Positions 6,969-63,150 of a stretch of 64,000 nt of DNA are shown piece after piece. The stretch is taken from contig NC_043001.1 of NCBI RefSeq assembly GCF_006345805.1, positions 130,448,001 through 130,512,000 of the forward strand, given 5' to 3'. The stretch is from Octopus sinensis. Lineage: Eukaryota. Within the stretch, counting starts at the first letter, position 1; each line of letters begins with the position of its first letter. The notes under the pieces are model-generated. The model saw only the letters and a list, made by a program, of their open reading frames with translations, searched no databases and was not told the origin of the DNA. The translations under genes were made by a program, and so were the position numbers.

Positions 6969-7005
6969 CATATGGTTATAAATTCTAAATCTTCATAAAC
7001 ATAAA

Positions 7006-7408
7006 GGCGCAGGAGTGGCTGTGTGGGAAGTAGCTTGCTTACCAACCACATGGTTCTGGGTTCAGTCTCACTGCGTGGCACCTTGGGCAAGTGTCTTCTA
7101 CTATAGCCTCGGGCCGACCAAAGCCTTGTGAGTGGATTTGGTAGACGGAAACTGAAAGAAGCCTGTCGTGTATATATATATGTGTGTGTGTGTGTGTTTA
7201 TGTGTCTGTGTTTGTCCCCCTAGCATTGCTTGACAACCGATGCTGGTGTGTTTACGTCCCCGTCACTTAGCGGTTCGGTAAAAGCGACCGATAGAATAAG
7301 TACTGGGCTTACAAAGAATAAGTCCCGGGGTCGATTTGTTCGATTAAAGGCGGTGCTCCAGCATGTCCGCAGTCAAATGACTGAAACAAGTAAAAGAGTA
7401 AAAGAGTA
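7006..7408 (+). mobile_element. Full-length tRNA-derived SINE family 1 (CORE-like central domain)
   Basis: A-box-like tggctgtgtgg, B-box-like ggttcagtc, accttgggcaagt core, internal microsatellite, (gtaaaaga)n tail; over 20 copies in the window. Confidence 0.92.
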
Positions 7409-7913
7409 TAAATATTATAAAGCCAAATAAGGAATTGCCTCATAAGGTTGGGATTTTATTTCCAAAGAATAGGAAATTCTTCACCAACAAAGAAGGACAA
7501 ATACTTTCTAAATGCAGAGTATTTTGATCAAGTTTCAGAGATGGAATACATATACTAACAAGAGTACAGCATCAATGGGCATCAAACTTAATTAGTTGAG
7601 CATTCCTAAAATAAGGAGTAAGTCATCAGTTATGCATATATGAATTAATGGGCAATGGAAACAACACAATGGAAAAAAAAGAAAAAGAAAGGCTTAATAA
7701 TTGAGTGAAACAAACTGTACAGCACCTTTGATAATTCTGTTCCTATTTGAGAAACTAAAGTAAAAAAAAAAAATAATAAGATGTAAAAATGTCTGTTTTG
7801 TGTTTGTTTCTAAACAAGATGTACAATGGATAATATTCTAATTTTCCAATTAGTGCAAATACACACATATAGATACAGATACAGACTCACTCACATAAGC
7901 ACATACATACATA

Positions 7914-10127: not shown

Positions 10128-10580
10128 CCCAGGTTAAAGAGAAAAAGGAAATTTAAAGACGCCGTCTAGATTACGTAGCTTTCAACTACTAGTAGCCGAG
10201 ATACCAACTTTCCACATTAATAACTCTTTATCCCATGTCAGCATGGAACATAGACGTTAAGTGAAATGTTAAAAGAAAGTTTTCAACACATATATGTATA
10301 TAAAGTGAATACACGTAATTCAAAAACATGTTTTCATCATCATCGTTTAACGTCCGCTTTAAACGATGATGATGAAAACATGTTTTTGAATTACGTGTAT
10401 TCACTTTATATACATATATGTGTTGAAAACTTTCTTTTAACATTTCACTTAACGTCTATGTTCCATGCTGACATGGGATAAAGAGTTATTAATGTGGAAA
10501 GTTGGTATCTCGGCTACTAGTAGTTGAAAGCTACGTAATCTAGACGGCGTCTTTAAATTTCTTTTTCTCTTTAACCTGGG
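10128..10580. repeat. Near-perfect palindrome, about 222-bp arms, 8-nt loop
   Basis: 10128-10350 is the reverse complement of 10359-10580 with one 1-nt indel seen; mirrored 71-aa ORFs on both strands. Confidence 0.97.
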
Positions 10581-11770: not shown

Positions 11771-11829
<59 letters not shown>

Positions 11830-12862
11830 CATATATATATATACACATATATATATACATATATATATTATATATATATATATATATATAAATACATATA
11901 TATATATATACACATATATATAAATATAAATATATATACACACACACACATATATATGCACACACACACACACACGTGCTCACATATATATATATACATA
12001 TAATATATATATATATAAATATAAATATATAACACACACACACATATATATGCACACACACACACACATGCACACATATACATACAACACACATACAAGA
12101 ACACAAATAAATCATAATTCAATAGAATTTCTAAATTCCTGAAAGATCTTTAGAAAAATTCACATACACTTCCCATAAATAAACACCACTTAAACAAACT
12201 TCAGCTCTCCTCTGACCAGTTCCATATTACACATTGCAATTATAATAATTACACCGGACCACAATCACAACAGCCTATAAGATACTGTAAAACACAATAA
12301 CACAAAATTCACATCTTACCATACCACACCATATTGTACCATACCAGTACCAACTATTTAAGGTATCGTAAGATACCTTAAATAGTTTGTGCTATGACTT
12401 TTTAAAGAGATGCTGTCTATAAATACAAATAGGTGTAGGCATGGCTGAATGGTAAGAAGTTTGTTTCCCAAACATATGGTTCCAGGTTCACTCCCACTGC
12501 TTGGTACATTGGGAAAGTATTTTCTACTTTATCCTCTCAGAGCAACCAAAGCCTTGTGAGTGGATGTGATAGATAGAAATTAAAAGAAGCCCACTAGGTG
12601 TGTGTGTGTGAGTAGATATATATATATGTAGATATATCTAGACATATATATATGTAGATATATGTAGATATATATATATGCAAATATATGTAGATATATA
12701 TACATGCTGAAGCATGGAATAAACTGCCTGCGTCAGTTGTTGACTGCCATGACACTGCATCCTTTAAGGCCCTCATGCTTTCCGAAATCCGTCGAAACTA
12801 CACCTGATTATATATGCACTTTAGATGAGTTGTAGTGCACCTGAGCACTGTACACAATGTTT

Positions 12863-12894
<32 letters not shown>

Positions 12895-12933
12895 TTATAT
12901 ATATATATATATATAAATACACATATATATATA

Positions 12934-12987
<54 letters not shown>

Positions 12988-13975
12988 CATATATATATAT
13001 ATACACATATATATAAATATAAATATATATACACACACACACATATATATGCACCACACACACACACGTGCTCACATATATAATACATACATATATATAT
13101 ATATATAAATAAAATATTATACCACACATACACATATAATGCACACACACACACACATGCACACATATACATACAACACACATACAAGAACACAAATAAA
13201 TCATAATTCAATAGAATTTCTAAATTCCTGAAAGATCTTTAGAAAAATTCACATACACTTCCCATAAATAAACACCACTTAAACAAACTTCAGTTCTCCT
13301 CTGACCAGTTCCATATCACATATTGCAATTATAATAATTACACCGGACCACAATCACAACAGCCCATAAGATACTGTAAAACACAATAACACAAAATTCG
13401 CATCTTACCATACCACACCATATTGTACCATACCAGTACCAACTATTTAAGGTATCGTAAGATACCTTAAATAGTTTGTGCTATGACTTTTTAAAGAGAT
13501 GCTGTCTATAAATACAAATAGGTGTAGGCATGGCTGTATGGTAAGAAGTTTGCTTCTTAAAACATGGTTCCAGGTTCACTCCCACTGCTTGGTACATTGG
13601 GAAAGTATTTTCTACTTTATCCTCAGAGCAACCAAAGCCTTGTGTGAGTGGATGTGATAGATAGAAATTAAAAGAAGCCCACTAGGTGTGTGTGTGTGTG
13701 AGTAGATATATATATATGTAGATATATCTAGACATATATATATGTAGATAGATGTAGACTATATATATTTGCAAATATTTGTAGATATATATACATGCTG
13801 AAGCAGGATAAACTGCCTGCGTCAGTTGTTGGACTGCATGACACTGCATCCTTTAAGGCCCTCATGCTTCCGAAATCGTCGAAATACACCTGATCTATAT
13901 ATGCACTATATAGAGTGTGTTGTAGTGAACCTGCGCACGAAATAAACATATGTTTACTTATTATTATTATTAATA
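11735..13975. repeat. Tandem duplication of about 1.09 kb (two copies)
   Basis: 12121 aligns with 13210; each copy has a unique block, 16-bp hairpin, SINE-1 5' half and CR1 3' fragment. Confidence 0.93.
12706..12878 (+). mobile_element. CR1-like LINE extreme 3' fragment (second copy 13796-13972)
   Basis: Nearly identical to 53167-53340 including (TTA)n tail. Confidence 0.9.
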
Positions 13976-13976
13976 T

Positions 13977-14007
<31 letters not shown>

Positions 14008-14032
14008 TGAAAGGTATAATGAATATAAATAT

Positions 14033-14253
14033 ATATTTCTTTAAGGCCCACAAGGGCTAAACATAGAGAGGACAAATAAGGACAGACAAAGGGATTAAGT
14101 CGATTACATCGACCCCAGTGCGTAACTGGTGCTTTTTTTATCGACCCGAAAGGATGAAAGGCAAAGTCGACCTCGGTGGAATTTGAACTCAGAACGTAAC
14201 GACAGACGAAATACCGCTAAGCATTTCGCCCGGCGCGCTAACGTTTCTGCCAG
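14033..14253 (-). mobile_element. SINE family 2 (Nin/Deu-like domain)
   Basis: Minus strand ctggcagaaacgttagc...gagttcaaattcc...gcctttcatcctttcgggtcgataaa...gcaccag; domain name from recall. Confidence 0.88.
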
Positions 14254-19863: not shown

Positions 19864-20029
19864 CCTAAGCCTAAGAAATTCAAGAGCTAGCACTCAGCTC
19901 AGAATGTAAAAGTGACTGTTTTGGGAGGACAAGATTATTATTCTTTTTGATTTTCTGGAATATAAACTGGAACTCCATCAGTTACAACAAAGGGGTTCCA
20001 GCCGATCTGATCAATGGAATAGCCTCTCT

Positions 20030-20414
20030 TTCTCTCTTTTATTTGTTTCAGTCATTTGACTGTGGCCATGCTGGAGCACCATCTTTAGTCGAGCAAATCG
20101 ACCCCAGGACTTATTCTTTGGAAGCCTAGTACTTATTCTATTGGTCTCTTTTGCCGAACTGCTAAGTTACAGGGACGTAAACACACCACCATTGGTTGTC
20201 AAGCAATGTTGAGGGGACAAACAGACACACCAACACAAATACACATATATATACATATATACGATGGGCTTCTTTCAGTTTCCATCTAACAAATCCACTC
20301 ACAAGGCTTTGGTCAGCCTGAGGCTATAGTAGAAGACACTTGCCCAAGGTGCTATGCAGTGGGACTGAACCCAGAAACTTGTGGTTTGTAAGCAAGCTAC
20401 TTACCACACAGCCA
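20030..20414 (-). mobile_element. SINE family 1
   Basis: Reverse-complement full-length homology. Confidence 0.88.
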
Positions 20415-20419
20415 CGGTT

Positions 20420-21110: not shown

Positions 21111-21305
21111 TGTGACCGCGTGTGTACCGTTGGTGATTTTTTTTCCTCTGTCTTCCCTTCTCCTATGTTTCTGACAAAGAGCTCCGCTCGAAACGTTAAA
21201 CCCTCCTTCTTTCCTTCTTTCCTGAGCATCCAATAATACTATATTGTTCCACATCTTCGGGTTGTTGTGTTTTCTCTTTGTGTTTTCATGTTTGGATTAA
21301 CTATA
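21111..21305 (+). mobile_element. Hammerhead-bearing ~200-bp element, family A, copy 1
   Basis: Flanked by (TA)n on both sides; gttt-CTGACAA-A-GAGC-tcc-GCTC-GAAAC-GTT-aaac at 21167-21201. Confidence 0.75.
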
Positions 21306-21968
21306 ATATATATATATATATATATATACATACACACACACAAAGGGATATTATTAATTAATATCCTAGAAACAGCTGTAAGGCCTTCTATCTATAAGTG
21401 CTCTAATATCTATACAGCCTTGGTTTTTTTATCTTATTACGCAAAAAATTCTTATATACACACAAATATATACAATACATATATGTGTGTGTGTGTTTGT
21501 GTATGATTTAGAAATCTGAGTGTAAGTAGTTTGTAAGCTACAAAAGCAGTAGGCAGCCAGTATAGAAAACAAAAAGTAGACTTTATATGATAAGGTACAA
21601 TAACAATTTATTAGCTCTGAGAGTTACACACTTTCCTCCATCCCCACTACCATATCGAAGTTGCAAAGAAATTTGATAAGCTGATAGTTTCTATAGCAAT
21701 CAATGCTACTAAAAATACAAATAAAATTCCCAGTTGAGGGAGTGGAACATATAAAATATAAGCTACATATGTTTCTTAACTAGCTGTAGCTTATTGCACA
21801 AGTGTTGCACAATGAGCACCTTCAAGTCTAGCTAATCATCAGGCTTCAATTGATTACCCTAAAGAAGTTTGCATTAACGCACAGAATTCCTAAGCTAGCC
21901 ACCAGACAATGGTGAGTGTAACAGAATAGAAAAGTCAATGGCAAAAAGTAAAAAAAAAGTAGACAATA

Positions 21969-22375
21969 GGCGCAGGAGTGGCTGTGTGGTAAGTAGCTTG
22001 TTTACCAACCACATGGTTCCGGGTTCAGTCCCACTGCGTGGCACTTTGGGCAAGTGTCTTCTGCTATAGCCTCGGGCCGACCAATGCCTTGTGAGTGGAT
22101 TTGGTAGACGGAAACTGAAAGAAGCCTGTCCTATATATGTATATATATATATGTATGTGTGTGTATATGTTTGTGTGTCCCCCCACCATTGCTTGACAAC
22201 CAATGGTAGTGTGTTTACGTCCCCGTAACTTAGCAGTTTGGCAAAAGAGACCGATAGAATAAGTACTGAGCTTACAAAGAATAAGTCCCGGGGTCAATTT
22301 GCTCGACTAAAGGTGGTGCTCCAGCATGGCCGCAGTCAAATGACTGAAACAAGTAAATGAGTAAATGAGTAAAAC
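21969..22375 (+). mobile_element. SINE family 1
   Basis: Full-length homology. Confidence 0.9.
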
Positions 22376-22603
22376 AAAAAATAAGGGAAGTACGTTTGGA
22401 GGACCAATGAGTGTTTCAGCACAAGGTGGTTTAGAGTCAAAGAGTAGGAAGAAAAAGAGAAAGGAAAGAAAGGAGAAAAAGATTATCATTAAATGGAATG
22501 GTGGGGTAGGTATTGAGGTAATAAAAACTTATCCAAAGGATGCTGATGACAGATTTTGACAGACTGTAAAGTATGCTGTTGTCCAAATTTATATGAGTAG
22601 ATA

Positions 22604-23619: not shown

Positions 23620-23835
23620 ACTCTTCTGTCTGGCATTCGGCATGATAGATTGCTATTCACTACACATTCATTATTTTCTCTATTTATTTCTTTCTGTGTT
23701 CCTTTCTGTGGAAGAGCATAGGTTCAAAACGTTAAAGACTTTTTCACTTCCTGAGTGTTATACTAATACATCTGTTTGTTGTCTACACCACCTGTCTTTG
23801 TCTTTTGGAGTTTTTTTTGTGAATTCTCCCTATAT
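23620..23835 (+). mobile_element. Hammerhead-like element, family B (relative of family A), degenerate
   Basis: cttt-CTGTGGA-A-GAGC-atag-GTTC-AAAAC-GTT-aaag at 23702-23737, followed by ttcctgag as in family A. Confidence 0.55.
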
Positions 23836-24569
23836 TCATACATACATACATATAAGGGTACATACACATAAATATACAACACATACACACACACATATAT
23901 TCACTTAAACACAGACATCTATAGAAATAGATAGATATACACATACATTTACATATATAAACACACAAACACATACAAACATACACAAATGCACACACAC
24001 GTATATATATATATATATATATACACATACATATATACATACATATATACATACATGTACACATACTGGCACATACACACACATACACACACACACACAT
24101 ATACATACACACATACATATGGCTATATATGCATGAATATTCATACATGCACTCATATAAATATACACACACATGCACATATTAGGTAAACAATCACCCA
24201 CACAAATACACATATAATTATATATCTACAAACACACACACACACATACACACACACACATACACACACACTTGTGAGTGCATGTGTATGTGTACATATA
24301 TCTGTTTGCCAACAACTAACTCCTGAATATTTGCATATTGCATTCATATTCTAATATCTTCAGATTAGATATCTCGCCCGAATCAGCTGCAAAAATCTTA
24401 TCAGTCAGATCAACCAAGAGTAAAAGAATTTAAAAACATTGAAATATACATGAAAAATGTACAATAACCATAATGAATTAATTAGTATAAGGATAAAAAC
24501 TACGACATTGACAAAATACTATCATAGATGATAATAATAATAATGATAATAAAAGGAAAACAACAATAA

Positions 24570-24795: not shown

Positions 24796-24797
<2 letters not shown>

Positions 24798-25001
24798 CCA
24801 AACATGAAAACACAAAGAGAAAACACAACAACGCGAGGACGTGGAACAAATATAGTATTATTGGACGCTCAGGAAGGAAGGGAAGAAGGAGGGTTTAACG
24901 TTACGAGCGGAGCTCTTCGTCGGAAACATAGGAGAAGGAAAGATCCAGAGAAGGGAAGACAGAGGAAAAAAAAATCGCCAACAGTACACACGTGGTCACA
25001 T
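24796..25001 (-). mobile_element. Hammerhead-bearing element, family A, copy 2
   Basis: Minus strand gttt-CCGACGA-A-GAGC-tcc-GCTC-GTAAC-GTT-aaac at 24893-24927. Confidence 0.75.
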
Positions 25002-25090
25002 CAGGTGCAGGGGTGGCTGTGTGATAAGTAGCTTGCTTACCAACCACATGGTTGTGGGTTCAGACCCACTGCATGACACCTTAGGTATTG

Positions 25091-25474
25091 ATATAAAAGT
25101 TGGTTTAAAGCTCTCTTCAGCCACAAACATTGTTATTCCAAAGATTACATCACAATATAAAAGGTATAATAAGTACATGTAGTATTACCCATGTACATGT
25201 ACTACATGTACTTTTTATATCTTTTATATTGTGATGTAATCTTTGGAATAACAATGCTTGCGGCTGAAAAGAGCTTTAAACCATCTTTTATATAAAAAAA
25301 TACACTGATGTAATAACGGATTGTTGATAAAGCTTGAAACACGTGTACTGCGATATCATTTGTGTTCTGTTTTTAATTCATATTTGATATATACTCTCAA
25401 ACCTCTGCCACTATCAGGCATATACAGGTGCTTACACTTATCAAGTATTCACTCTAAATTTACAGTACCTACTT
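25091..25474 (+). mobile_element. Fold-back hairpin (25091-25293) followed by hammerhead-like core (25301-25352); Penelope-like terminal structure
   Basis: About 95-bp imperfect inverted arms, then taca-CTGATGT...GAAAC-ACGT-GTA-ctgcg; ends in (TA)n. Confidence 0.6.
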
Positions 25475-25802: not shown

Positions 25803-25808
25803 ATATAT

Positions 25809-26030
25809 AACTAAAAATAAGGGTGTCTAAGAGACATCACCATGCCGAAATAGCAGTCAAATCCCTGACTCTAAAAACCACATTAAATGTTCATATCGCA
25901 CAGTAGAGTCAGGGATATTTGACTGCTATTTTGGCATGGTGGTTTCTCTCAGACACCCTTATTTTTAGTTGTAAAAAATTATTACTTTGTATGGTATTTT
26001 TTCCCATGCTGGCCACTTGATAATAACGAT
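25809..26030. mobile_element. Fold-back element (hairpin 25809-25970); single-arm relative at 28420-28592
   Basis: aactaaaaataagggtgtct...agacacccttatttttagtt arms; cccatgctggccac shared with the reverse complement of 28460-28475. Confidence 0.7.
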
Positions 26031-26160: not shown

Positions 26161-26197
<37 letters not shown>

Positions 26198-26199
<2 letters not shown>

Positions 26200-26447
26200 G
26201 GTTGTCAATTCCTTATGCAGAGTCTCACAACCTCTTGAACCTACACCTTAGAACCATCATGGCATCTGATGTGGCTTTTTAAACCAGACAATGTATTGAA
26301 AAGACACCCACATAAATTGCATATCTGATTTGGACCACCAAGAGCTGCAGTTAAGTTCTGATCTTTGTGGATCTTAAAATGTCTTTTGAGACCTCTGTTA
26401 GATTTGCAGAACCTATAGCATTCACAGCACTGAAAGGTGTGCGCAGA
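26198..26447 (-). mobile_element. RTE-clade LINE 3' end encoding two C2H2-like fingers
   Basis: FQCCECYRFCKSNRGLKRHFKIH...ICNLCGCLFNTLSGLKSHIRCHDGSKV*, short 3' UTR then (TA)n; homologous to 40-480; lacks TGEKP linkers. Confidence 0.72.
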
Positions 26448-26838
26448 TATATATAAATACACACAGACATACACACGTGTACGCACGCACCCTCTGCTGA
26501 ATCACATTCCAAACTACATAGATTCTTGATGCACTAAAATAATATTTTATCTCTGCCTCTAGAGTATGTCTTCATAATTACCAACTCTTAACAGAGACCA
26601 GCTGGATGTGAGAATGAGAGATAATCTCAGGAACCAAGAATTCTCCAAAGATGCCGAGCCATAAAGGAAAAGGATGACAGACTTACTGTCTGGAGATAGA
26701 GGAGAATTGTGGACATATTTATATATATATATATATTTATTTATGAATGTGTGTGTATATATACATACATATATACATACAATATATACATATATATATA
26801 TTTACATACACACACAGATACATATAAATTTATATATA

Positions 26839-31900: not shown

Positions 31901-31940
<40 letters not shown>

Positions 31941-31943
<3 letters not shown>

Positions 31944-32152
31944 TAATCCAAACATGAAAAACACAAAGAGAAAACCCAACAATGCGAGGACGTGGAACAA
32001 ATATAGTATTATGGATGCTCAGGAAAGAAGGAAAGAAAGAGGGTTTAACCTTTTGAGCAGAGCTATTCGTCAGAAACATAGGAGAAGGAAAGATCCAGAG
32101 AAGGGAAGACAGAGAAAAAAAAAAATCGCCAATGGTACACACGTAGTCACAT
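31941..32152 (-). mobile_element. Hammerhead-bearing element, family A, copy 3
   Basis: Minus strand gttt-CTGACGA-A-TAGC-tct-GCTC-AAAAG-GTT-aaac at 32043-32077; (TA)n both sides. Confidence 0.72.
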
Positions 32153-37032: not shown

Positions 37033-37062
<30 letters not shown>

Positions 37063-37065
<3 letters not shown>

Positions 37066-37480
37066 CGCAGGAGTGGCTGTGTGGTAAGTAACTTGCTAAC
37101 CAACCACATGGTTCTGGGTTCAGTCCCACTGCGTGGCACCTTGGGCAAGTGTCTTCTGCTATAGCCCTGGGCCGACCAATACCTTGTGAGTGAATTTGGT
37201 AGATGGAAACTGAAAGAAGCCTGTCGTATATATGTATATATATATATATGTATGTGTGTATTTATGTATCTGTGTTTGTCCCCCTAGCATTGCTTGACAA
37301 CCGATGCTGGTGTGTTTACGTCCCCGTCACTTAGCGGTTCGGCAAAAGGGACCGATAGAATAAGTATTAGGCTTACAAAGAATAAGTCCCGGGGTCGATT
37401 TGCTCGACTAAAGGCGGTGCTCCAGCATGGCCACAGTCAAATGACTGAAACAAGTAAAAGAGTAAAGAGAGTAAAAGAGA
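37063..37480 (+). mobile_element. SINE family 1
   Basis: Full-length, close to other young copies. Confidence 0.92.
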
Positions 37481-52510: not shown

Positions 52511-52716
52511 GTCGCGTGTGTATCGTTGGCGATTTTTTTCCTCCGTCTTCCCTTCCTTGGATCTTTCCTTTTCCTATGTTTCTGACAAAGAGCTCTGCTC
52601 GAAACGTTGAATCCTCTTTCTTTCTTTCCTTTCCTGAGCGTCCAATATTACTATACTTGTTCCATGTCCTCGCGTTGTTGTGTTTTCTCTCTGTGTTTTC
52701 ATGTTTGGATTAACTA
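52511..52716 (+). mobile_element. Hammerhead-bearing element, family A, copy 4
   Basis: gttt-CTGACAA-A-GAGC-tct-GCTC-GAAAC-GTT-gaat at 52578-52612. Confidence 0.75.
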
Positions 52717-52836
52717 TATATATATAGTAAGAGGAGGGATATGAATATCCAGGCAGATAATAAAGCCGGTCTCTTCTGATGGTCTGCTTTAAAATATATT
52801 TCTTAAAAACTACCATCTGATGTTAAGGTTAACTTC

Positions 52837-62929: not shown

Positions 62930-63150
62930 TAATCAGTCTAGTGTCCTCATCTTGATTGTTATAGTTCCAATATTTCAACCATTATAGCCTCTAGCATTTT
63001 TTTTGGTGCTTGTTCTATTCAATTTGTTTGTGAATATTTACCGAATATGGCAGATACCTGAAGAAGGCTGGAAAATACAACAACTGAAACATTATGAGTA
63101 TAACAACCAAGATGGCAACACTACTCTTAGTAATATCTCAAAGTATAATA
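62930..63150 (+). mobile_element. Inverted pair of Penelope-like terminal fragments with degenerate hammerhead core (63055-63096)
   Basis: tac-CTGAAGA-AGGCTG..CAACT-GAAAC-ATT-atg followed by tataacaaccaagatg, inversely repeated as catcttgattgttata at about 62948-62963. Confidence 0.55.

What the first reader, a model, noticed from the sequence alone, without database searches (positions are those of the whole stretch)
21111..21305. Abundant ~200-bp non-coding retroelement carrying a minimal hammerhead ribozyme (family A)
Seen: four copies in 64 kb (21111+, 24796-, 31941-, 52511+) with shared ends, abutting (TA)n, with no Pol III boxes or TIRs that I can see. The combined consensus GTTT-CTGACGA-A-GAGC-tcc-GCTC-GAAAC-GTT-AAAC is a complete type I core. 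Each copy is broken, two of them by the same CpG-type G-to-A change. Known: Penelope-like elements and retrozymes carry minimal hammerheads whose palindromic, loop-less stem III (ACGT here) allows cleavage as dimers. Inference: a non-autonomous, self-cleaving retroelement system at high density that could also cut host pre-mRNA. Whether it is already described in this taxon needs a database check.
Basis: partly seen in the sequence, partly recalled or inferred. Interest (0 to 1): 0.8.

Follow-up and report, generated by a model that had tools for sequence, protein, structure and literature searches.

The report
Penelope retroelement end with variant hammerhead
The 200-base repeat is the tail end of a Penelope-like jumping gene and carries the small "hammerhead" RNA motif already described for such genes; all four copies here are broken, and the commonest form in the genome has a core change that likely weakens cutting yet has been kept across the element's younger lineages.

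Summary
Observation confirmed; interpretation partly corrected. There are four copies in the window, each with a broken hammerhead core. The repeat is the terminal ~210 nt (pseudo-LTR end) of a Penelope-like element (PLE) encoding RT plus GIY-YIG, Neptune-type by linker motif. It lies 1.1-3.2 kb downstream of the ORF in 17 of 20 ORF loci. About 14,000 exact 3' ends exist, so the window is roughly tenfold denser than average. U4 marks older lineages; C4 is fixed in younger ones. Across six C4 lineages 0 of 26 core columns vary against 72 of 163 flank columns. Most copies span the predicted cut site, and 45 of 68 start about 100 nt upstream of it. It is not a tandem retrozyme: only 14 head-to-tail junctions. 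Host pre-mRNA cutting has no support. PLE minimal hammerheads are in print since 2014, and the scan found this kind in eight other windows. The retained variant core is the only new angle; cleavage is untested.

The parts
21111..21305 (+). Copy 1 (the finding): solo pLTR end of the PLE, with a ~15-nt internal deletion, flanked by (TA)n; young-lineage markers
21167..21201 (+). Minimal type I hammerhead of copy 1: stem I 21167-21170/21198-21201, core 21171-21177 (G8A at 21176, broken), extra A at 21178, stem II 21179-21189, GAAA 21190-21193, palindromic ACGT 21193-21196, predicted cut after 21197
24796..25000 (-). Copy 2: transitional lineage, 3' end a few nt short; hammerhead 24927-24893 with C4 (24922) and A13U (24903), broken
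31938..32151 (-). Copy 3: young-lineage markers; hammerhead 32077-32043 broken at G10.1, G12 and C15.2
52513..52718 (+). Copy 4: older U4 lineage; hammerhead 52578-52612 with G8A and a weakened stem I
23675..23854 (+).

Best explanation
The repeat is the last ~210 nt of a Penelope-like retroelement (RT + GIY-YIG endonuclease, Neptune-type linker), carries that element's minimal hammerhead motif, and was likely copied into (TA)n microsatellites by the element's own enzyme from RNA that the ribozyme had not cut. Shown: full elements run pLTR - 5'UTR - ATG ORF - CA-rich 3'UTR - pLTR end - (TA)n; dispersed copies share the fixed 3' end; most begin 186-225 nt upstream of it; the four window copies have broken cores. 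Inferred: the endonuclease nicks (TA)n, and reverse transcription is primed at the TA-rich junction where the pLTR meets the 5'UTR. Inferred with less confidence (about 55%): the 5' pile-up marks the pLTR's internal transcription start, since the sharpest peak falls on an initiator-like TCATTC (consensus recalled). The ribozyme would cut only as a dimer or with the element's protein. The younger lineages fixed U4C, which likely lowers activity, yet kept every other core position, so the motif is likely attenuated but still under selection rather than dead.
For: Linkage: end copy downstream of the ORF on the same strand in 17 of 20 ORF loci, upstream joined to the 5'UTR in 5 of 20, at least one in 19 of 20; background 2 in 50 unselected stretches. 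39 exact pLTR-5'UTR junctions genome-wide, 74 with one mismatch, control 0; of 30 read, several U4-type copies also continue into the 5'UTR and 7 reach ORF sequence. Protein: RVT_1 E 0.0018 and GIY-YIG E 0.0018, both below Pfam cut-off; 60 homologues, best 54% identity at E 4e-137, mostly annotated RVT_1 + PF26215 with or without GIY-YIG; DKG motif, C-x4-C-x2-C linker and conserved C/H residues of the endonuclease. Ribozyme features match those listed in PMC4209133 (extra nt between 9 and 10.1, G10.1-C11.1, palindromic 15.2-16.2, short helix I). Other families in the genome keep the same core with different stems. Position 4 follows lineage markers outside the core: 22 T and 0 C in old (one more has A), 2 T and 33 C in young, Fisher p 8e-14; 47 of 49 rows of a clade with SH-aLRT 96 carry C; mirror CpG-decay form 138 against U4 717, so U4 is a real lineage. 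Constraint: 0 of 26 against 72 of 163 columns. 5' ends: 3.06 per 100 nt at risk at 186-225 nt, 0.16 around the cut site. PMC11167929 reports internal RT initiation and that ribozyme mutants do not affect insertion in vitro.
Against: No cleavage, transcript or 5'-end data: runs were contigs only and RNA was a guess. No uninterrupted ORF was seen in the 10 loci translated (output partly cut), so current activity is unshown. The ORF search was seeded with a C4-lineage ORF, so 'all ORF-linked 3' copies carry C4' is biased. Upstream pLTRs do not all start at the putative start site: about 7 of 28 do, 13 are shorter, 8 longer. The constraint test used hand-picked tree groups, counts gaps as a state and includes low-complexity flanks, so its p value (1e-6) is inflated. 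The age difference is modest (nearest-neighbour distance 0.074 against 0.059, p 0.005). The tree is a quick search with many open forks and an outgroup that is not fully one clade. Stem I is only 4 bp (pair probabilities 0.09-0.40), and two isolated cores co-fold into a non-hammerhead duplex (-22.5 kcal/mol, against -10.9 for stems II plus the shared helix III, scored without stem I). Neptune is assigned by motif only; Nematis shares the linker.
Confidence: 0.88

Rival explanations
1. The ~210-nt unit has become a self-propagating non-autonomous element: solo copies are transcribed from their own internal promoter and retroposed by the PLE protein.
For: 45 of 68 copies share a narrow 5' end; solo ends outnumber pLTR-5'UTR junctions about 14,000 to 74; a 2026 preprint argues that animal retrozymes derive from pLTRs.
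Against: Every lineage examined has members that extend upstream into the 3'UTR or downstream into the 5'UTR; short copies interleave with ORF-linked copies on the tree; no short-only subfamily was seen. This route can coexist with the best explanation.
Confidence: 0.25
2. The C4 form is a catalytically dead relic; the 26-nt core is conserved for another reason, such as a protein-binding hairpin or promoter element, or through low statistical power.
For: U4C 'considerably decreases activity in vitro' (PMC3088659); a sister family fixed A6U (13,218 exact); one lineage has a stem I mismatch; copies span the cut site; cleavage is dispensable in vitro for another PLE.
Against: All other catalytic positions, stem II and the helix III palindrome are invariant among six C4 lineages; some lineages changed the cleavage triplet from GUU to GUC; natural U4C keeps enough activity in a viroid.
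Confidence: 0.3
3. Classical non-LTR retrozyme: tandem arrays cut into monomers, circularised and re-inserted.
For: Size (~210 nt) and type I topology fit; one three-copy run exists on contig C4207.
Against: Only 14 head-to-tail junctions genome-wide, each with a variable TA-rich spacer; copy ends do not coincide with the cut site; six close pairs inspected were duplications with shared flanks, inversions or neighbours with unrelated flanks.
Confidence: 0.04
4. Inserted copies cut host pre-mRNA and regulate genes.
For: At least 717 exact canonical cores and 11,924 canonical-pattern motifs of several families exist in the genome.
Against: All four window copies are broken; minimal hammerheads showed no monomer activity and low dimer activity; no host exon was found in the window; a per-copy core-versus-flank count showed no clear retention in young copies (4.4% against 6.1%) and a modest one in old copies (3.9% against 7.6%), not tested further.
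Confidence: 0.06

Closest known systems
Minimal hammerheads (min-HHR) in pLTRs of metazoan Penelope-like elements (Cervera and de la Pena 2014, PMC4209133; read parts 1-2 of 4 and passages of supplement file 2; file 1 not searchable)
   Same: Type I topology, extra nucleotide between 9 and 10.1, G10.1-C11.1, palindromic loop-less helix III, 4-bp helix I, U-rich flank, located in pLTRs, mostly found as solo motifs from truncated PLEs; mollusc examples (Lottia, Crassostrea) listed.
   Different: Helix II is 4 bp rather than the 7-8 bp of the Schistosoma motifs; the commonest core is C4 where their consensus is CUGANGAH; no octopus entry in the searched supplement file.
Neptune/Nematis-clade PLEs (as described in Craig et al. 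2021, 10.1101/2021.04.23.441226; passages only)
   Same: RT then C-terminal GIY-YIG, CX2-5CxxC linker, DKG motif, microsatellite (TA)n targeting, partial tandems and adjacent inverted 5'-truncated copies.
   Different: Clade not tested with named references; long CA-rich 3'UTR (1.1-3.2 kb) and a sharp 5'-end pile-up about 100 nt upstream of the ribozyme.
Poseidon PLE of Anolis, PAc (Frangieh et al. 2024, PMC11167929; read parts 1-2 of 4)
   Same: Internal initiation of reverse transcription, AT-rich targets, optional tail, insertion from unprocessed RNA.
   Different: There the ORF starts inside the hammerhead and the RT start is not homologous to the target; here the ATG lies about 300 nt beyond the pLTR end, and the 3' end is TA-rich like its target.
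Non-LTR retrozymes (Li, Clavereau and Pollet 2026, 10.64898/2026.07.22.740005; read parts 1-2 of 5)
   Same: Short, non-coding, type I hammerhead, related to pLTRs.
   Different: Defined by tandem arrays; here copies are dispersed monomers (14 junctions) contiguous with PLE sequence.
Natural U4C hammerhead of a viroid (as cited in Perreault et al. 2011, PMC3088659; passages and section 8)
   Same: Same core substitution, reported as much slower in vitro but sufficient in vivo.
   Different: There a viroid variant; here the commonest exact form of a high-copy genomic family.

Membership tests
Penelope-like element (EN+) | Single ORF with RT followed by GIY-YIG endonuclease | tested here: met
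   (both Pfam hits below cut-off); the copies read carry frameshifts or stops
Penelope-like element (EN+) | pLTR repeated on both sides of the ORF (partial tandem) | tested here: met
   both sides in 3 of 20 ORF loci (L150, L159, L160), upstream only in 2, downstream in 17; 39 exact junctions
Penelope-like element (EN+) | Intron in the pLTR/5'UTR | tested here: inconclusive
   no GT-AG joint among the rows shown in contigs of uncertain RNA origin
Neptune clade | CX2-5CxxC linker and microsatellite targeting | tested here: met
   the linker is shared with Nematis
Neptune clade | RT phylogeny with named references | not testable with these tools
   no Repbase or Dfam reference set; homologues unnamed
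PLE minimal hammerhead | Extra nt 9/10.1, G10.1-C11.1, GAAA, palindromic 15.2-16.2, NUH, short helix I | tested here: met
   against PMC4209133
PLE minimal hammerhead | Canonical CUGANGA core | tested here: inconclusive
   met in older lineages (717 exact); not met in the commonest form (3,409 with C4) nor in any of the four window copies
PLE minimal hammerhead | Self-cleavage as a dimer or with protein | not testable with these tools
   needs a bench assay
Non-LTR retrozyme | Head-to-tail tandem arrays of ribozyme-bearing units | tested here: not met
   14 junctions against about 14,000 ends
Non-LTR retrozyme | Circular monomer RNAs | not testable with these tools
   only contigs available
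Rfam hammerhead families | Covariance-model match | tested here: not met

The most novel reading that the evidence does not exclude
Two of this genome's most successful (TA)n-targeting repeat lineages independently fixed different uridine-turn changes in their hammerheads (U4C in this PLE, A6U in a sister family with 13,218 exact copies) while keeping the rest of the ribozyme. Their inserted copies begin at the pLTR promoter and span the cut site. The PLE hammerhead would then be selected for a tuned-down, protein- or dimer-gated rate, and the U4-to-C4 series in one genome would be a natural experiment on what PLE ribozymes are for.
Probability: 0.3. Interest if true: 0.55.

Novelty: new variant of a known kind. 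Interest (0 to 1): 0.33.

Why it matters
The kind is known, and the four window copies are inert relics. The residual value is evolutionary. The role of hammerheads in PLE transposition is open: PMC11167929 found cleavage dispensable in vitro. This genome offers dated lineages with canonical, U4C and A6U cores and thousands of insertions whose ends can be mapped against the cut site, which makes 'attenuated but needed' versus 'vestigial' testable. A practical point is that descriptors demanding CUGANGA, and Rfam, miss the commonest form of this family.

Tried and rejected
Rfam on the window (150 of 208 rows shown, nearly all microsatellite-driven miRNA hits) and on an intact copy: no hammerhead. 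Repeat finder swamped by microsatellites. Expression: no RNA holder listed; 4 of 20 runs laid, contigs only, RNA a guess, so no evidence either way. PLE protein in the window: none by tblastn. Host exons: none above cut-off in 110 of 167 candidate ORFs; short exons could be missed. 'U4 is only CpG decay of C4': rejected (138 against 717; lineage markers). 'Ribozyme cut defines the 5' end': rejected, 2 of 68 near the cut at background rate. Retrozyme arrays rejected. Lunse et al. 2017 on PLE hammerhead variants (PMC5785218) is not held; I saw only its reference line, and it may already describe U4C or A6U. Literature searches: hammerhead ribozyme + octopus; hammerhead + Penelope-like + dimers (15); hammerhead + U4C (36, one paper); Neptune + Penelope-like + octopus (54); cephalopod + Penelope + ribozyme (69); octopus genome + Penelope + SINE (70); Penelope-like / solo pLTR / hammerhead (81). 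None of the listings or passages read described this family's ribozyme. Dfam and Repbase could not be searched.

Full report
Setting. The window is G000:C5:130448001-130512000 of a 2.72-Gb genome. It is 27-42% GC and rich in microsatellites. Its abundant ~400-nt SINE-like repeat resembles octopus SINEs; that resemblance is recalled, not from a call, so the host taxon is a guess.

Observation. Four copies are present, each beside (TA)n, and none has an intact core. Copies 1 and 4 share G8A as stated. The motif reads as a minimal type I hammerhead: 4-bp stem I, seven-nucleotide core, one extra A, 4-bp stem II closed by G10.1-C11.1, GAAA, palindromic ACGT and a GUU triplet. These are the features listed by Cervera and de la Pena (PMC4209133, parts 1-2 of 4 read). 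A general pattern for this architecture hits 11,924 times against 22 for the reversed control and collects at least three families with different stems. Rfam does not detect it.

Abundance. A 17-nt 3'-end pattern occurs 14,046 times, control 1; three of the four window copies match it exactly. Fifty unselected 10-kb stretches held 2 clear copies, one older relative and two sister-family hits, plus a short fragment at a looser cut-off. I estimate 15,000-25,000 copies, so the window is about tenfold enriched.

What it belongs to. Some copies extend upstream. Following one led through a CA-rich UTR to an RT + GIY-YIG ORF. Searching with that ORF gave 2,274 candidates, 40 scored. In 20 of these loci the end lies 1.1-3.2 kb downstream on the same strand in 17, upstream and joined to the 5'UTR in 5, and is absent in 1. 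The pLTR-5'UTR junction occurs 39 times exactly. Of 30 read, 27 matched the reference 5'UTR over 100 nt or more, 2 only briefly and 1 not at all; 7 reach ORF sequence, including one U4-type and one older copy. Pfam hits are weak, but 60 homologues up to 54% identical carry RT, PF26215 and often GIY-YIG annotations, and the alignment shows the DKG motif and a C-x4-C-x2-C linker. By Craig et al. (passages) that linker marks Neptune and Nematis. No uninterrupted ORF was seen in 10 loci translated (output partly cut). PLEs are reported in an Octopus repeat annotation that has no mention of ribozyme or hammerhead (PMC13282606, passages); a squid genome paper counts 235 Rfam hammerheads (PMC6962438, passages).

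The core variant. Exact 35-nt counts are 3,409 for C4, 717 for U4 and 138 for the mirror CpG-decay form; exact matching favours young copies. For an end-anchored sample I read 70 of the first 78 listed 3'-end hits on contig C1. The 8 skipped were already held, all with exact cores (6 C4, 2 U4), which biases the sample against intact copies. Twelve short or internally deleted rows were dropped, leaving 58. Position 4 follows four lineage markers outside the core: 22 T, 0 C and 1 A in old copies, 2 T and 33 C in young. Eight of 58 are intact with U4 and 20 of 58 if C4 is allowed. A tree built without that column needs 4 changes against 26 for shuffles and places 47 C rows and window copies 1 and 3 in one clade (SH-aLRT 96, quick search). 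More diverged relatives and the other families carry U4, so C4 is derived. All 15 ORF-linked 3' copies aligned carry C4, though the ORF query came from a C4 lineage. Among six C4 lineages 0 of 26 core columns differ against 72 of 163 flank columns (groups hand-picked, flanks partly low-complexity). Perreault et al. state that U4C considerably lowers activity in vitro but suffices in a viroid (PMC3088659, passages and section 8). A sister family has U at position 6 in 13,218 exact copies, with position 7 free, and the fourth stem I pair swapped from G-C to C-G; its ORF partner was not sought.

Ends and mechanism. In 68 of the 70 sampled copies (one without alignment and one with an internal deletion left out; two lengths raised by hand), 45 have 5' ends 186-225 nt from the 3' end, a rate of 3.06 per 100 nt at risk. 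Around the predicted cut it is 0.16, like its neighbourhood, and 63 of 68 span the cut site. Seven copies begin at the same one or two bases of an initiator-like TCATTC (consensus recalled). Penelope has an internal TATA-less promoter in its pLTR region (PMC2377424, abstract and section 14), so I read the pile-up as the transcription start, at about 55%. Microhomology with (TA)n/(TG)n targets or an RT stall are alternatives, and only about 7 of 28 upstream pLTRs start there. In the full element the fixed 3' end runs on into a TA-rich junction, which suggests internal priming on (TA)n. Frangieh et al. showed internal RT initiation for another PLE, ribozyme cleavage only with protein, and no effect of ribozyme mutations on insertion (PMC11167929, parts 1-2 of 4). 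Folding gives stem II at probability 0.47-0.86 and stem I at 0.09-0.40 in three natural copies, and does not favour the catalytic dimer for isolated cores.

Rivals. Retrozyme arrays are nearly absent. A self-propagating short element remains possible but no short-only lineage was seen. Host pre-mRNA cutting has no support in this window. Expression could not be assessed.

Verdict. This is a known kind: a PLE pseudo-LTR with a minimal hammerhead, found by this scan in eight other windows (none by sequence). The window copies are dead. The retained U4C core, its A6U parallel and the mapped ends are the only additions. They are not in the papers I could read, but Lunse et al. 2017, supplement file 1 of PMC4209133, the preprint supplements, Dfam and Repbase were not seen and may cover them. 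Other papers touched: PMC6765202 and PMC10886601 (passages only); 10.64898/2026.07.22.740005 (parts 1-2 of 5).

Noticed in passing
window 23675-23854 (+); genome-wide: Sister repeat family with an A6U hammerhead core, 13,218 exact copies; the copies seen also begin about 90-100 nt upstream of the motif and end in (TA)n. ORF partner not sought.
   Followed up: partly
window 63052-63114 (+); L232, L234, L238: Decayed piece of a third family with a canonical core and longer stem II; genomic copies sit after (AAT)n runs on the 5' side and have variable 3' ends.
   Followed up: partly
L263, L266, L270, L271, L275, L277, L285, L287, L290: Upstream-type pLTR copies whose match to the 5'UTR stops after about 100-150 nt, others after 220-320 nt, like PLE 'tails'; several abut an inverted copy.
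   Followed up: partly
window 10143-10566: Perfect inverted repeat, 208-nt arms, 8-nt spacer; the source of sub-threshold miRNA hits. Smaller ones at 25088-25296 and 25806-25973.
   Followed up: no
window 11786-14036: About 1.1-kb tandem duplication, 93.5% identical.
   Followed up: no
window 6995-7411, 20024-20415, 21953-22384, 37053-37476 and others: Abundant ~400-nt SINE-like family, more than ten copies in the window; resemblance to octopus SINEs recalled.
   Followed up: no
window 26244-26501 (-) and 30-277: Weak C2H2 zinc-finger hits below Pfam cut-off, inside a stretch (26186-26439) 83% identical to 30-277; possibly a decayed finger array or a repeat.
   Followed up: no
L153, L156-L160, L224, L228: Younger C4 lineages changed the cleavage triplet from GUU to GUC, and some then acquired a mismatch in stem I.
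   Followed up: partly
G000 contig C4207, 3082-3352: Two head-to-tail junctions 219 nt apart, a three-copy run; the only array-like case among 14 junctions.
   Followed up: no
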